4,746 nucleotides of DNA from a virus (Duplodnaviria; Heunggongvirae; Uroviricota; Caudoviricetes), in the IMG/VR virus record IMGVR_UViG_3300039368_000121; one strand, written 5' to 3'. The notes beneath the pieces are model-generated. The model worked only from the letters and a program-made list of their open reading frames with translations, made no database searches and was not told the DNA's origin. Below, one piece after another: positions 1-4,746 of the stretch. Positions within the stretch are counted from its first letter, which is position 1, and each line of letters begins with the position of its first letter. Made by a program: the position numbers and the translations under genes.

Positions 1-502
1 CCGGCGGCTGCAGGTGCAGAGTGATTTGCCGTGGTGGCTGGTCTGCCGGGGGACGATTCATAAATTCCGCTGTGTGCCGCATCTCACCGGGCGGCGCTTT
101 GAGCACGGGGTGACGGACTGTTACACGCTGTTCCGGGATGCTTATCATCTGGCGGGGATTGAGATGCCGGATTTTCATCGCGAGGATGACTGGTGGCGTC
201 ACGGTCAGAATCTCTATCTGGATAATCTGGAGGCCACAGGGCTGTATCAGGTGCCGTTGTCATCAGCACAACCGGGCGATGTGCTGCTGTGCTGTTTTGG
301 TTCATCGGTGCCGAATCATGCCGCCATTTACTGTGGTGATGGCGAGCTGTTGCACCATATTCCTGAACAACTGAGCAAACGAGAGAGGTATACCGACAAA
401 TGGCAGCGACGCACACACTCCCTCTGGCGTCACCAGGCATGGCACGCATCTGCCTTTACGGGGATTTACAACGATTTGTCCGCCGCATCGATCTGCGTGT
501 GA
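1..502 (+). CDS. K: Tail tip assembly protein K, C-terminal NlpC/P60 peptidase-like domain; 5'-partial, the reading frame is open to the window start (codons at 2-13 have no stop) and the N-terminal part lies upstream of the window
   Basis: The translation (…VTDCYTLFRDAYHLAGIEMPDFHREDDWWRHG…NHAAIYCGDGELLHHIPEQL…) matches my memory of the lambda gpK C-terminal region. The NlpC/P60-type catalytic residues are present: Cys codon tgt at 119-121, His codon cat at 317-319, His codons at 353-358. Stop TGA at 500-502. The track's start at 14 is a GTG with an open frame upstream, so the true start is outside the window. Position immediately upstream of I and J fits lambda gene order. Confidence 0.85.
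   Translation, partial: RRLQVQSDLPWWLVCRGTIHKFRCVPHLTGRRFEHGVTDCYTLFRDAYHLAGIEMPDFHREDDWWRHGQNLYLDNLEATGLYQVPLSSAQPGDVLLCCFGSSVPNHAAIYCGDGELLHHIPEQLSKRERYTDKWQRRTHSLWRHQAWHASAFTGIYNDLSAASICV
381..388 (+). promoter_or_regulatory. Shine-Dalgarno-like purine run (GAGAGAGG) upstream of the I start codon
   Basis: GAGAGAGG at 381-388 ends 11 nt before the ATG at 400. The spacing is on the long side but it is the only good ribosome-binding site near either candidate start of I. Confidence 0.4.
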
Positions 503-1041
503 AAACGGGGGCCGAAGCCATCCGGGCGCTGGCCATGCAGATCCCGGCGTTTCGTCAGAAGCTGAGCGACGGCTGGTATCAGGTACGCATTGCCGGGCGT
601 GATACAGGTGAAACGGAATTATCAGCCCGTCTGAATGAACCGCTGGCAAATGGTGCTGTGATCCATATCGTGCCGCGTCTGGCAGGAGCCAAAAGTGGCG
701 GTGTGTTTCAGGCTGTGCTGGGGGCGGCTGTTATGGCGGTTGCTATATGGATGCCGGGGGTAGGAATTATGGCGAGTAATCTGCTGTTTTCTCTCGGTGC
801 CAGTATGACGCTTGGCGGTGTTGCACAGATGCTGGCCCCTAAACCCAAAACCCCCCGCACACAGACAACGGATAACGGCAAACAGAACACCTATTTTTCT
901 TCACTGGATAATATGGTTGCCCAGGGCAATGTTCTGCCCGTTCTGTACGGTGAAATGCGCGTGGGATCACGTGTGGTATCTCAGGAGATCAGCACAGCAG
1001 ATGAAGGTGATGGTGGTCAGGTTGTGGTGATTGGTCGCTGA
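400..1041 (+). CDS. I: Tail assembly protein I (lambda gpI family), 213 aa
   Basis: The N-terminus (MAATHTLPLASPGMARICLYGDLQRF…) and C-terminus (…NTYFSSLDNMVAQGNVLPVLYGEMRVGSRVVSQEISTADEGDGGQVVVIGR) match my recollection of lambda gpI, with a Gly/Ala-rich hydrophobic middle segment. ATG at 400 is the first start after the in-frame stop at 364-366; an alternative in-frame ATG lies at 439. Stop TGA at 1039-1041. The gene overlaps the 3' end of K by 103 nt in a different frame. Confidence 0.85.
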   Translation: MAATHTLPLASPGMARICLYGDLQRFVRRIDLRVKTGAEAIRALAMQIPAFRQKLSDGWYQVRIAGRDTGETELSARLNEPLANGAVIHIVPRLAGAKSGGVFQAVLGAAVMAVAIWMPGVGIMASNLLFSLGASMTLGGVAQMLAPKPKTPRTQTTDNGKQNTYFSSLDNMVAQGNVLPVLYGEMRVGSRVVSQEISTADEGDGGQVVVIGR

Positions 1042-1101: not shown

Positions 1102-4100
1102 ATGGGTAAAGGCAGCAGTAAGGGGCATACCCCGCGCGAAGCGAAGGACAACCTGAAATCCACGCAGCTGCTGAGTGTGATTGATGCCATCAGCGAAGGG
1201 CCGATTGAAGGTCCGGTGGATGGATTAAAAAGCGTGCTGCTGAACAGTACGCCGGTGCTGGACAGTGAGGGGAATACCAATATATCCGGCGTCACGGTGG
1301 TGTTCCGGGCAGGTGAGCAGGAGCAGTCACCGCCGGAGGGATTTGAATCCTCCGGCTCCGAGACGGTGCTGGGTACGGAAGTGAAATATGACACGCCGAT
1401 CACCCGCACCATTACGTCGGCAAACATCGACCGTCTGCGCTTTACCTTCGGTGTACAGGCACTGGTGGAAACCACCTCAAAGGGTGACAGGAATCCGTCG
1501 GAAGTCCGTCTGCTGGTTCAGATACAGCGTAATGGTGGCTGGGTGACGGAAAAAGACATCACCATTAAGGGCAAAACCACCTCGCAGTATCTGGCCTCGG
1601 TGGTGGTGGGTAACCTGCCGCCGCGCCCGTTCAATATACGGATGCGCAGGATGACGCCGGACAGCACCACAGACCAGCTGCAGAACAAAACGCTCTGGTC
1701 GTCATACACCGAAATCATCGATGTGAAACAGTGCTACCCGAACACGGCACTGGTCGGCGTGCAGGTGGATTCGGAGCAGTTCGGCAGCCAGCAGGTGAGC
1801 CGTAATTATCATCTGCGCGGGCGCATTCTGCAGGTGCCGTCGAACTATAACCCGCAGACGCGGCAATACAGCGGTATCTGGGACGGAACGTTTAAGCCAG
1901 CATACAGCAACAACATGGCCTGGTGTCTGTGGGATATGCTGACCCATCCGCGCTACGGCATGGGGAAACGTCTTGGTGCGGCGGATGTGGATAAATGGGC
2001 GCTGTATGTCATCGGCCAGTACTGCGACCAGTCAGTGCCGGACGGCTTTGGCGGCACGGAGCCGCGCATCACCTGTAATGCGTACCTGACCACACAGCGC
2101 AAGGCGTGGGATGTGCTCAGTGATTTCTGCTCGGCGATGCGCTGTATGCCGGTATGGAACGGGCAGACGCTGACGTTCGTGCAGGACCGGCCATCAGATA
2201 AGGTGTGGACCTATAACCGCAGTAATGTGGTGATGCCGGATGATGGCGCGCCGTTCCGCTACAGCTTCAGCGCCCTGAAGGACCGCCATAATGCCGTTGA
2301 GGTGAACTGGATTGACCCGAACAACGGCTGGGAGACGGCGACAGAGCTTGTGGAGGACACGCAGGCCATTGCCCGTTACGGTCGTAACGTCACGAAGATG
2401 GATGCTTTTGGCTGTACCAGCCGGGGGCAGGCACACCGCGCCGGGCTGTGGCTGATTAAAACAGAACTGCTGGAAACGCAGACCGTGGACTTCAGCGTGG
2501 GTGCCGAAGGGCTTCGCCATGTACCGGGCGATGTCATTGAAATCTGCGATGATGACTATGCCGGTATCAGCACCGGCGGGCGCGTGCTGGCGGTAAACAG
2601 CCAGACCCGGACGCTGACGCTCGACCGTGAAATCACGCTGCCATCTTCCGGCACCACGCTGATAAGCCTGGTTGACGGGCAGGGGAGTCCGGTCAGCGTG
2701 GAGGTTCAGTCCGTCACCGACGGCGTGAAGGTGAAAGTGAGCCGTGTTCCTGACGGCGTTGCTGAATACAGCGTATGGGGGCTGAAGCTGCCGACGTTGC
2801 GCCAGCGCCTGTTCCGCTGCGTGAGTATCCGTGAGAACGACGACGGCACGTATGCCATCACCGCCGTGCAGCATGTACCGGAAAAAGAGGCCATCGTGGA
2901 TAACGGGGCGCACTTTGACGGCGACCAGAGCGGCACGGTAAATGGTGTCACGCCGCCAGCGGTGCAGCACCTGACCGCAGAAGTCACCGCAGACAGCGGG
3001 GAATACCAGGTGCTGGCGCGCTGGGACACGCCGAAGGTGGTGAAGGGCGTGAGCTTCCTGCTTCGCCTGACCGTGGCAGCGGATGACGGCCGTGAGCGGC
3101 TGGTCAGCACGGCCCGGACGACGGAAACCACTTACCGCTTCACACAACTGGCTCTGGGGAACTACAGGCTGACAGTCCGGGCAGTAAATGCGTGGGGGCA
3201 GCAGGGCGATCCGGCGTCGGTATCGTTCCGGATTGCCGCACCGGCAGCGCCGTCGCGGATTGAGCTGACGCCGGGCTATTTTCAGATAACCGCCACGCCG
3301 CATCTTGCGGTTTATGACCCGACGGTACAGTTTGAGTTCTGGTTCTCGGAAAAACGGATTGCGGATATCAGGCAGGTTGAAACCAGCGCGCGTTATCTTG
3401 GTACGGCACTGTACTGGATAGCCGCCAGTATCAATATCAAACCGGGCCATGATTATTATTTTTACGTTCGCAGTGTGAACACCGTTGGCAAATCGGCATT
3501 CGTGGAGGCTGTCGGTCAGCCGAGTGATGATGCATCAGGCTATCTGGATTTTTTCAAAGGCGAGATAGGGAAAACCCATCTGGCTCAGGAGCTGTGGACG
3601 CAGATTGATAACGGTCAGCTTGCGCCTGACCTGACTGAAATCAGGACGTCCATAACGGATGTCAGCAATGAAATAACACAGACCGTCAATAAGAAACTGG
3701 AAGACCAGAGTGCAGCGATCCAGCAGATACAGAAGGTTCAGGTTGATACAAATAATAACCTGAACAGCATGTGGGCAGTGAAGCTGCAGCAGATGCAGGA
3801 CGGACGCCTTTATATTGCGGGTATCGGTGCCGGTATTGAGAACACCCCTGACGGCATGCAGAGTCAGGTGCTGCTGGCAGCAGACAGGATTGCGATGATT
3901 AATCCTGCGAATGGCAACACAAAGCCGATGTTTGTTGGTCAGGGCGATCAGATATTCATGAATGAAGTGTTCCTGAAACGCCTGACGGCCCCCACCATTA
4001 CCAGCGGCGGTAATCCTCCGGCATTTTCCCTGACATCAGACGGGAGACTGACGGCGAAAAATGCGGATATCAGTGGCAGTGTGAATGCGAACTCAGGAAC

Positions 4101-4599
4101 GCTCAACAATGTCACGATTAACCAGAACTGTACGATTAAGGGCATGCTGGAGGCGACCCAGGTCAGAGGAGATTTCGTTAAAGCTGTATCAAAAGCCTTC
4201 CCGAAAAAAGTCGGTACGTGGGGTAACACGGAAACACCAAACGGTACGGTTACAGTCACCATCAGCGATGATCATAACTTTGACCGCCAGATTATTATTC
4301 CGCCCATTATTTTTAACGGTATAGCGTATGACGATCCGGGGAGCGGAAATAACCCAGGAGGCACGCGATACACGGGTTATGGTTTTGAAGTTCGCAAAAA
4401 CGGCGTATTAATCGCATCCAGAGAAACTAAAGGGGCCATTCCCGGTAGTTACAGTGCAGTTATTGATATGCCGAGTGGCAGGGGAAGCGTCACTCTGGAG
4501 TTTAAGATTTTCCAGAAAGGCAATCAGGGGGCAGGCAATATCACCGACTGTACGGTGATTGTGACCAAAAAAGCCGCTTCCGGCATCAGTATTCGTTGA
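1102..4599 (+). CDS. J: Host specificity protein J / central tail fibre (tip attachment protein), 1165 aa
   Basis: The N-terminus ([58 protein letters not shown]…) matches lambda gpJ as I recall it. The length is close to lambda J (1132 aa as I recall). The middle region contains two fibronectin type III-like segments (about nt 2950-3240 and 3240-3530, e.g. …[37 protein letters not shown]…). The C-terminal region (…[19 protein letters not shown]…[13 protein letters not shown]…[14 protein letters not shown]) is recognisably gpJ-like but diverged. The ORF is uninterrupted, has a good ribosome-binding site, and stops at TGA 4597-4599 ahead of a strong terminator. Confidence 0.95.
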
Positions 4600-4617: not shown

Positions 4618-4646
4618 AAAGGGCGTCAGGAATGACGCCTTTTTTA
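4618..4646 (+). terminator. Rho-independent (intrinsic) terminator downstream of J
   Basis: GGCGTCA (4622-4628) pairs with TGACGCC (4633-4639) around the loop GGAA (4629-4632). The stem is extendable by AAAG/(C)TTT flanks and is followed directly by a run of six T (4640-4645). It sits 19 nt after the J stop codon. Confidence 0.8.
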
Positions 4647-4673
4647 TTGCAGAAAAGCGAGAGGTAATTATGG

Positions 4674-4705
4674 TAAGCGTCAACGGAGCACCGTATTGAC
4701 GCTTA
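4674..4705. repeat. Perfect 10-bp inverted repeat (TAAGCGTCAA / TTGACGCTTA) with a 12-nt spacer
   Basis: The segment 4674-4683 is the exact reverse complement of 4696-4705, with spacer CGGAGCACCGTA. It overlaps a 9-codon mini-ORF (4670-4699) that has its own ribosome-binding site and contains a TTGACG -35-like hexamer (4696-4701). Confidence 0.5.
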
Positions 4706-4746
4706 TTTATTGGTGAGTACTACGTTCCATGGCAGGAGTTCGTCAA

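What the first reader, a model, noticed from the sequence alone, without database searches (positions are those of the whole stretch)
3540..4599. GC content drops in the 3' third of J, pointing to a mosaic recombination joint
By eye, the 5' two-thirds of J (for example 1300-3300) is GC-rich with G/C-ending codons, whereas from about 3540 onward the sequence is visibly more AT-rich (for example 3650-3790: …aatgaaataacacagaccgtcaataagaaactggaagaccag…caggttgatacaaataataacctgaac…). Such a shift inside a single ORF is typical of modular exchange of tail-fibre distal segments between phages, so the recombination joint should lie near 3300-3550, at the end of the second FN3-like domain.
Basis: seen in the sequence. 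Interest (0 to 1): 0.4.

Follow-up and report, generated by a model that had tools for sequence, protein, structure and literature searches.

The report
GC step inside mosaic J gene
The tail-tip gene J of this lambda-like E. coli prophage does switch from GC-rich to average composition two-thirds of the way along and is a recombinant, but the switch is an old feature shared by its relatives, so this is an ordinary, already described kind of phage mosaicism.

Summary
The GC drop is real. A single maximum-likelihood changepoint lies at nt 3277 (codon 725 of J): GC falls from 0.602 to 0.495 and GC3 from 0.735 to 0.546 (LLR 21.6; the largest of 500 permutations was 7.9).

J is also mosaic. The window allele matches an ev207/lambda-type allele at 545 of 563 informative sites up to nt 3408-3513. 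It matches an Stx2d_112808-type allele at 185 of 188 sites from 3510-3518 onward (MaxChi 648; permutation maximum 20).

However, the GC step is not the signature of that joint. It maps to the same position in 12 of 14 J alleles examined, including lambda, both parental types and Stx-phage alleles only 57-87% identical in the 5' part. The crossover joined two stretches that were already low in GC.

The step coincides with an independent joint in a relative (3264-3276). It is the 3' edge of the GC-rich morphogenesis block.

The distal cassettes are an Stx-type helical shaft, 28 aa longer than lambda's, and a 434-type (OmpC-type) receptor-binding domain. Modular exchange of distal J is already published, and identical 3' sequences exist in five sequenced phages. 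Interest is low.

The parts
14..502 (+). 3' part of tail-tip assembly gene K (C40 peptidase family in the annotation of relatives)
   Evidence: ORF list. Annotated as K / C40 family peptidase under the match in relatives.
400..1041 (+). Tail-tip assembly gene I. It contains its own divergent patch at about 570-850.
   Evidence: ORF. Sliding identity is 56-74% to lambda, Stx2k and ev207 but 95-100% to mEp332 over about 600-850.
1102..4599 (+). Gene J, the tip attachment / central tail fibre protein (1165 aa)
   Evidence: ORF. Pfam matches: FNIII-A_GpJ 86-207, Phage-tail_3 330-498, Ig_J 610-714, Ig_J_second 716-818, Phage_Tail_Tip 872-1000, Ig_GpJ_C 1029-1164. Matches solved lambda gpJ 8iyk.
1102..3276 (+). 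GC-rich proximal part of J (hub domains plus FNIII-1), lambda-type lineage
   Evidence: GC 0.602, GC3 0.735. 96-100% identical to lambda, 434, ev207, Ayreon and Stx2k; 57-87% to Stx-type alleles.
3264..3277 (+). Position of the compositional step (changepoint nt 3277, support 3251-3430). It is also the joint mapped in the relative Stx2d_112808.
   Evidence: same changepoint in 12 of 14 alleles. Stx2d_112808 switches from Stx2a_JNE122398-like to window-like between 3264 and 3276; mismatches to Stx2d_112808 fall from 9-14 per 30 nt to 1-4 per 30 nt exactly here.
3277..3516 (+). Low-GC FNIII-2 segment, still of the lambda/ev207 type. Its 5' part is a local minimum of diversity across lineages.
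   Evidence: GC 0.50. Zero or one mismatch per 30 nt to ev207. 12 of 14 alleles are at least 90% identical here. Diversity is 0.099 at 3262-3381 against 0.19 immediately upstream.
3409..3517 (+). Crossover interval of the window's J allele (codons 770-806, inside FNIII-2)
   Evidence: The last run of ev207-type informative sites ends at 3408. Stx2d_112808-type sites start at 3510/3518. MaxChi 648 against a permutation maximum of 20.
3517..4050 (+). Stx-type cassette: end of FNIII-2, alpha-helical shaft and upper central straight fibre. It carries 28 extra residues relative to lambda, at about nt 3607-3699.
   Evidence: 99-100% identical to Stx2d_112808 and WGPS6; 24-65% with a gap to lambda, 434 and ev207. 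Protein alignment. Domain names from PMC11101478.
4051..4599 (+). Lower straight fibre plus the 434-type receptor-binding domain (Pfam Ig_GpJ_C, nt 4186-4593)
   Evidence: 99% identical to phage 434 at 4102-4476 and 97-100% to Stx2d_112808 and phage 2851; 40-53% to lambda. The joint in 434 relative to lambda lies at 4056-4095.
4619..4648 (.). GC-rich hairpin followed by a T run after J, terminator-like
   Evidence: Seen in the sequence and in the scan. A terminator is annotated at the equivalent place in phages 434 and Ayreon.
4673..4746 (.). End of an IS66-family (ISEc23-like) insertion sequence interrupting lom just after its start codon at 4670
   Evidence: Homology to relatives stops at 4676. 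The ORF from the ATG at 4670 is only 9 codons. The megablast match lies under features annotated 'IS66-like element ISEc23 family transposase'.

Best explanation
The window carries K(3')-I-J of a lambda-like E. coli (pro)phage. J consists of two compositionally distinct blocks. The proximal block (hub domains plus FNIII-1, nt 1102-3276) belongs to the GC-rich tail-morphogenesis block (GC about 0.60, GC3 about 0.74). The distal block (FNIII-2, alpha-helical shaft, central straight fibre and receptor-binding domain, nt 3277-4599) has GC about 0.49, as do the downstream side-fibre-like gene and hypothetical ORF in relatives (lom is intermediate at 0.55). This step is an inherited, family-wide feature of E. 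coli lambdoid J genes and lies at the FNIII-1/FNIII-2 boundary. It is not a scar of a recent event. Distal to the step, J is assembled from exchangeable cassettes separated by conserved stretches: the start of FNIII-2, and the fibre segment around lambda residue 964. Homologous recombination between co-resident or co-infecting lambdoid phages is inferred to cross over in these stretches. The window's allele combines a lambda/ev207-type proximal part (through about nt 3408-3516), an Stx-phage-type shaft/fibre cassette that is 28 aa longer than lambda's, and a 434-type receptor-binding domain. It is therefore predicted to use OmpC and not LamB. Shown here: the step, its conservation across alleles, the breakpoints and the cassette types. 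Inferred: the recombination mechanism, the direction of exchange, the cause of the lower GC (a different gene-pool history) and OmpC use.
For: The GC3 fall is synonymous: the 3' amino-acid sequence read with the 5' part's codon choices would give GC3 0.715, against 0.548 observed. The same changepoint (window nt 3277) appears in 12 of 14 alleles. FNIII-1 is 0.62-0.67 and FNIII-2 is 0.48-0.55 in all 14. In phiSTEC1575-Stx2k the only large step in 8.1 kb is at this point (0.599 to 0.494, LLR 53) and the low level continues through lom and stf. Breakpoints are at 3409-3517 in the window, 3264-3276 in Stx2d_112808, 4056-4095 in 434 and 2862-2874 in Stx2c_PV98; none of 1000 permutations reached the observed chi-square in any case. 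Cassette types reassort among alleles. The 28-aa insertion and the identity to Stx2d_112808 and 434 are. Published work states that the J specificity region is an independently recombining module (PMC6646904), that the 434 J confers OmpC use, and gives the domain layout HD/FNIII-1/FNIII-2/AHS/CSF/RBD (PMC11101478). [quoted passage not shown] By my own coordinate conversion this is close to the 4056-4095 joint.
Against: Only 14 alleles were aligned, although several thousand E. coli genomes carry J. Breakpoint clustering at the conserved stretches therefore rests on four mapped joints. Triplet analysis cannot say which allele is the recombinant. Two alleles (WGPS6, phage 2851) place the GC changepoint slightly later, at 3326 and 3526. 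In lambda the step is weak (0.593 to 0.532, LLR 6). The cause of the lower GC is not established. About 40% of the total drop lies in codon positions 1 and 2, which means amino-acid composition (more I, N, K, F; fewer R, V, L). Receptor use was not tested.
Confidence: 0.85

Rival explanations
1. One reading: the GC drop is the footprint of a recent acquisition of a foreign, AT-richer distal segment by this phage, so the step itself is the recombination joint.
For: The distal part does have different relatives from the proximal part. A real joint exists within 3300-3550. In one relative (Stx2d_112808) a joint falls exactly at the step.
Against: The step lies at the same position in 12 of 14 alleles, including both parental types and lambda. 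The window's own crossover (3409-3517) lies downstream of the step and joins two stretches of equal GC (0.50 and 0.51). No second changepoint is detected. ev207 is essentially identical to the window on both sides of the step.
Confidence: 0.07
2. The drop is a by-product of protein composition: the helical shaft and beta-prism fibre need N/K/I/Q-rich sequence, which is encoded by AT-rich codons.
For: GC at codon positions 1 and 2 falls from 0.535 to 0.469. GC2 reaches 0.28-0.35 in the shaft, at codons 841-900. I, N, K and F rise while R, V and L fall.
Against: GC3 falls by 0.19, and amino-acid composition explains only about 0.02 of that (expected 0.715, observed 0.548). GC3 at four-fold sites falls from 0.80 to 0.61-0.66. 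The step occurs between two homologous FNIII/Ig domains of similar fold, before the shaft begins.
Confidence: 0.05
3. Selection on synonymous sites in the distal part (for example slower translation for co-translational trimer folding, or mRNA structure or stability near the operon end) maintains the lower GC3 regardless of history.
For: The step is position-conserved across deeply divergent alleles. Distal GC3 drops also occur in the distant J genes of HK97 and Klebsiella phage VAC113.
Against: GC level varies with cassette type at the same position. The lambda RBD is 0.54 against 0.48 for the 434 type, and phage 2851 FNIII-2 is 0.55 against 0.50. The low level continues into the downstream side-fibre-like gene and hypothetical ORF (0.48), lom being intermediate at 0.55. 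This fits shared history better than a J-specific constraint. No direct test was possible.
Confidence: 0.08

Closest known systems
Phage lambda gpJ (tip attachment protein J; PDB 8iyk, 8k35, 8xcg)
   Same: Same gene order K-I-J-lom and the same six Pfam domains. The first 2175 nt of J are 96.4% identical. The GC changepoint is at the same position.
   Different: From nt 3517 the shaft/fibre cassette is 24-65% identical and 28 aa longer. The receptor-binding domain is 40-53% identical. Lambda's own GC step is much weaker (LLR 6 against 19) because its distal part is richer in GC.
Phage 434 J and the classical lambda h434 host-range hybrid (OmpC-using)
   Same: The receptor-binding end (4102-4476) is 99% identical to 434. 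434 itself is lambda-like up to a joint at 4056-4095. The 434 J confers OmpC use (PMC11101478).
   Different: 434 has the short lambda-type helical shaft, whereas the window has the long Stx-type shaft.
J 'specificity region' as an independently recombining module (Maddamsetti et al. 2018, PMC6646904)
   Same: The phylogeny of the distal part of J disagrees with that of the rest of J, with recombination between them. The same is seen here.
   Different: That study defined the module as lambda residues 960-1132. Here a second exchangeable cassette (FNIII-2 end, shaft, upper fibre; nt 3517-4050) and joints further upstream (3264-3276, 3409-3517) are mapped. No mention of composition was seen in the passages of that paper read here.
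Segmental base composition of lambda DNA: GC-rich left arm against a less GC-rich central region (Skalka, Burgi and Hershey 1968; Sanger et al. 1982). This is from my own knowledge and was not checked here.
   Same: A GC-rich head and tail gene block is followed by DNA of lower GC. The J-internal step is the edge of that block in this phage group.
   Different: I did not find a paper that places the boundary at the FNIII-1/FNIII-2 junction inside J. In lambda itself the boundary at this point is weak.
Engineered gpJ chimeras A8 and 1A2 (Brodel et al. 2024, PMC11338833; PDB 9wca)
   Same: Natural distal gpJ ends are fused to lambda J at a conserved stretch (lambda aa 964) to switch the receptor to OmpC. 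The same junction region is used by natural recombinants.
   Different: The window's receptor-binding domain is only moderately similar to A8's, roughly as distant as it is from lambda's. It is the 434 type.

Membership tests
Lambda-type tip attachment protein J (gpJ) | Domain architecture: hub domains, FNIII/Ig domains, tail-tip fibre and C-terminal receptor-binding Ig domain | tested here: met
   All six Pfam gpJ domains score above their curated cut-offs, E-values 1e-25 to 1e-43. Matches solved gpJ chains at 2e-230.
Lambda-type tip attachment protein J (gpJ) | Position in the tail-tip operon, after K and I and before lom/stf | tested here: met
   ORFs K and I lie upstream. Relatives are annotated K-I-J-lom-stf. 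The lom start is present at 4670 but is interrupted by an IS.
434-type (OmpC-using) J receptor-binding domain | Sequence identity of the C-terminal domain to that of phage 434 | tested here: met
   99% nt identity at 4102-4476. Only a handful of amino-acid differences in the last 170 residues or so.
434-type (OmpC-using) J receptor-binding domain | Adsorption or infection depends on OmpC and not LamB | not testable with these tools
   Inferred only from the similarity to 434 and the statement in PMC11101478.
Intragenic recombinant (mosaic) allele | A significant breakpoint with each side matching a different sequenced lineage | tested here: met
   MaxChi 648 against a permutation maximum of 20. 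545 of 563 sites are ev207-like on the left and 185 of 188 are Stx2d_112808-like on the right.
Intragenic recombinant (mosaic) allele | Segment types reassort among alleles (incongruent groupings) | tested here: met
   Single-linkage groups at 90% identity differ between the five blocks of J.
Compositional island marking a recent foreign acquisition | The GC shift coincides with the joint and is absent from relatives that lack the acquired segment | tested here: not met
   The step is at 3277 and the joint at 3409-3517. The step is present in 12 of 14 alleles, including both parental types.

The most novel reading that the evidence does not exclude
The FNIII-1/FNIII-2 junction of J may be a fixed hinge in E. 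coli lambdoid phages. It would be the 3' edge of the vertically co-inherited, GC-rich morphogenesis block. The conserved low-GC stretch just after it (3277 to about 3400) and a second conserved stretch at about 4000-4100 would act as homology 'linkers' where recombination repeatedly swaps shaft/fibre and receptor-binding cassettes. A fall in synonymous GC towards the receptor-binding end may be general for J-like central fibres, since it is also seen in HK97 and a Klebsiella Webervirus. That would reflect a separate, wider gene pool for host-recognition modules.
Probability: 0.35. Interest if true: 0.3.

Novelty: already known. Interest (0 to 1): 0.15.

Why it matters
The practical value is modest. 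The analysis gives nucleotide-level positions of natural crossover points in J (3264-3276, 3409-3517, 4056-4095), which are sensible fusion points for engineering host range. It also shows that a GC shift inside a phage fibre gene should not be read as the location or the date of a recombination event. Here the shift is ancestral, and the actual joint lies in compositionally uniform DNA downstream. It predicts OmpC, not LamB, as the receptor for this prophage's tail tip. None of this changes the current understanding of lambdoid mosaicism.

Tried and rejected
1. Chi sites (GCTGGTGG) as a cause of the joint position: there are none in the window.

2. Looking for published J typing or GC comments. 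PMC12315714 (the Chi / lambdoid phage paper) had no relevant text, nor did PMC9836094 (co-transfer in lambdoid phages).

3. Finding the exact source genome. The best full-length match among complete E. coli genomes is 98.1% and among phages 97.0-97.7%, so the window is not an exact copy of any record searched.

4. Assigning the receptor-binding domain to the structurally solved OmpC-binding A8 gpJ. The match is only moderate, about as distant as lambda's, so this was rejected in favour of the 434 type.

5. Amino-acid composition as the sole cause of the drop: rejected by the codon-usage swap test.

6. Multi-changepoint segmentation of the lambda locus found no significant step at the threshold used. 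The strong step is therefore a feature of alleles with 434/Stx-type distal parts and is only weak in lambda.

7. One paper search failed because a term had fewer than three characters.

8. Structure prediction and the large protein-database searches were not used. Close annotated and structurally solved relatives made them unnecessary.
Full report
**What the window is**

The window holds the 3' part of K (14-502), I (400-1041) and a complete J (1102-4599, 1165 aa). After J come a terminator-like hairpin and the first codons of lom.

J has all six Pfam gpJ domains:
- FNIII-A, aa 86-207
- Phage-tail_3, aa 330-498
- Ig_J, aa 610-714
- Ig_J_second, aa 716-818
- Phage_Tail_Tip, aa 872-1000
- Ig_GpJ_C, aa 1029-1164

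It also matches the solved lambda gpJ structures. In the published nomenclature the last four domains correspond to FNIII-1, FNIII-2, the alpha-helical shaft plus central straight fibre, and the receptor-binding domain (PMC11101478).

Megablast finds 270 phage records, mostly E. coli lambdoid and Stx-converting phages, the best at 97.0-97.7% over 95-99% of the window. Matches occur in 5274 of 5426 complete E. coli genomes, the best at 98.1%. The window is therefore a lambda-like E. coli (pro)phage, and it is not identical to any record searched.

**Checking the observation**

The GC drop is real.
- The sliding profile is 0.57-0.65 up to about 3300 and 0.47-0.53 after it.
- The maximum-likelihood changepoint lies after codon 725, at nt 3277. 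This holds for GC3 (0.735 to 0.546, LLR 21.6; the largest of 500 permutations was 7.9) and for total GC (0.602 to 0.495).
- Support intervals are 3172-3394 for GC3 and 3251-3430 for GC.
- Recursive segmentation of the window finds no other step.

In practice this is the FNIII-1/FNIII-2 boundary. FNIII-1 is the most GC-rich part of J (0.67), which sharpens the step.

About 60% of the drop is at third codon positions. If the 3' amino-acid sequence used the 5' part's synonymous choices, its GC3 would be 0.715, not 0.548. GC3 at four-fold sites falls from 0.80 to 0.61-0.66.

**Is J mosaic, and where are the joints?**

I aligned J with 13 other alleles fetched from phage records and computed sliding identity.

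- *Proximal part.* Up to 3276 there are two deep lineages. The window, lambda, 434, ev207, Ayreon, mEp332, ev058 and phiSTEC1575-Stx2k are 93-100% alike. Stx-type alleles (Stx2d_112808, WGPS6, phage 2851, Stx2a_JNE122398) are only 57-87% identical to them.
- *Against Stx2d_112808.* Mismatches to the window fall from 9-14 per 30 nt to 1-4 per 30 nt exactly at 3277, and to zero from 3427.
- *Against ev207.* ev207 has zero or one mismatch per 30 nt up to 3516. From there it diverges sharply, and 84 nt of the window have no counterpart.

Triplet MaxChi tests give the following joints:

| Allele | Left of joint | Right of joint | Joint |
|---|---|---|---|
| Window | ev207-like, 545 of 563 informative sites | Stx2d_112808-like, 185 of 188 sites | 3409-3517 |
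| Stx2d_112808 | Stx2a_JNE122398-like | window-like | 3264-3276 |
| 434 | lambda-like | Stx2d_112808-like | 4056-4095 |
| Stx2c_PV98 | Stx2a_JNE122398-like | lambda-like | 2862-2874 |

For the window the chi-square is 648 against a permutation maximum of 20, and the crossover lies in codons 770-806, inside FNIII-2. In no case did any of 1000 permutations reach the observed value.

Grouping the alleles at 90% identity block by block shows that cassette types reassort:
- three shaft/fibre types
- four receptor-binding-end types
- two hub types

Triplet tests cannot say which allele is the recombinant.

**Is the GC step the mark of that joint?**

It is not.
- The total-GC changepoint maps to window nt 3277 in 12 of 14 alleles. 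The exceptions are WGPS6 at 3326 and phage 2851 at 3526.
- All 14 alleles fall from 0.62-0.67 in FNIII-1 to 0.48-0.55 in FNIII-2.
- Both parental types have the step, and so does lambda, weakly (0.593 to 0.532, LLR 6).
- The crossover at 3409-3517 joined two stretches of about 0.50 GC and left no compositional trace.

In the 8.1-kb phiSTEC1575-Stx2k locus the only large step is at this same point (0.599 to 0.494, LLR 53). The lower segment average continues downstream: the side-fibre-like gene and the following hypothetical ORF are at 0.48, and lom is intermediate at 0.55. The J-internal step is therefore the 3' edge of the GC-rich morphogenesis block in this phage group.

The step coincides with the point where one Stx-type allele joins the common distal pool (3264-3276). 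It also coincides with a local minimum of diversity (0.099 at 3262-3381, against 0.19 just upstream). In a deeper sense the distal third does look like a separately circulating module. The step is old and shared, not a recent scar.

**Relatives of the two parts**

The best hits are the same phages for both parts: phiSTEC1575-Stx2k (98.5% and 100%) and PhiR42_1 (97.9% and 100%). PhiR42_1's J protein is 99.7% identical to the window's.

Five phages are 100% identical to the window over 3277-4599. The recombinant allele is therefore established and circulating.

Beyond the top hits the two parts behave differently. For the 5' part, 103 phage records are at 95-99% and 146 are at 60-80%. For the 3' part, identities spread from 100% down to 60%, and only 25 records cover at least 80% of it. 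In E. coli genomes, 4367 hold most of a 1-kb 5' probe but only 1163 hold most of a 1-kb 3' probe.

**What the distal cassettes are**

Nt 3517-4050 is the Stx-type end of FNIII-2, helical shaft and upper fibre. It is identical in protein to Stx2d_112808 and 28 residues longer than lambda, 434 and ev207 in the shaft.

Nt 4051-4599 is the 434-type lower fibre and receptor-binding domain, 99% identical in nucleotides at 4102-4476. The 434 J confers use of OmpC (PMC11101478), so OmpC is the predicted receptor. This is an inference and was not tested. The domain is only moderately similar to the solved OmpC-binding A8 gpJ.

**Comparison with what is known**

Exchange of the distal end of J between lambdoid phages is classical (the h434 hybrid). 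It has also been shown phylogenetically for the 'specificity region', lambda residues 960-1132 (PMC6646904). Engineered chimeras use lambda residue 964 as the fusion point (PMC11338833), which by my coordinate conversion is close to the natural 4056-4095 joint.

Segmental GC heterogeneity of lambda DNA has been known since the 1960s; this is from my own knowledge and was not checked here.

What this analysis adds is small: the exact position of the step at a domain boundary, its conservation across alleles, and the mapping of a second exchangeable cassette upstream of the specificity region.

**Verdict**

- Observation: confirmed, with the position corrected to about 3277.
- Interpretation: partly supported. 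The mosaic and the joint location are right; using GC as the marker of that joint is wrong.
- Novelty: an already known kind of feature.
- Interest: low.

Noticed in passing
window 4670-4746: lom is interrupted. Its ATG at 4670 is followed from about 4673 by GTAAGCGTCAACGG..., which matches the end of IS66-family (ISEc23-like) elements in many E. coli genomes. Homology to lom of relatives stops at 4676, and the ORF is only 9 codons long. This suggests the source is a resident, possibly decaying, prophage.
   Followed up: partly
window about 570-850 (inside gene I): There is a second intragenic mosaic patch. The middle of tail-tip assembly gene I is 56-74% identical to lambda, phiSTEC1575-Stx2k and ev207, but 95-100% identical to mEp332. 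The nearest relative therefore changes between I and J.
   Followed up: partly
window 1102-2150: Low-divergence joints also exist within the lambda-type proximal part. Ayreon is 99-100% identical over about 1102-1926 and then 93-97%. ev207 and phiSTEC1575-Stx2k are 94-97% up to about 1476 and then 99-100%.
   Followed up: no
window about 3607-3699: The alpha-helical shaft has 28 extra residues relative to lambda, 434 and ev207, shared with Stx2d_112808, WGPS6, Ayreon, mEp332 and ev058. A longer shaft should lengthen the central fibre. Any functional consequence is unknown.
   Followed up: partly
L011 2465-6355 (HK97 J); L015 2474-6244 (Klebsiella phage VAC113 J): Distantly related J genes also show a significant fall in GC3 towards the distal end. 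In HK97 it is 0.652 to 0.333 at codon 1128 of 1296. In VAC113 it is 0.612 to 0.424 at codon 850 of 1256. This may be a general trend in central-fibre genes.
   Followed up: no
window 4619-4648: A GC-rich hairpin (GGCGTCA-GGAA-TGACGCC) followed by TTTTTTATT lies 20 nt after the J stop codon. Terminators are annotated at the equivalent place in phages 434 and Ayreon.
   Followed up: partly
L002 7472-8123; L006 7135-7272: Relatives carry type III effector genes or remnants (nleC pseudogene, NleB-like pseudogene) downstream of the side-fibre genes. This is typical cargo at the end of the low-GC region. It lies outside the window.
   Followed up: no
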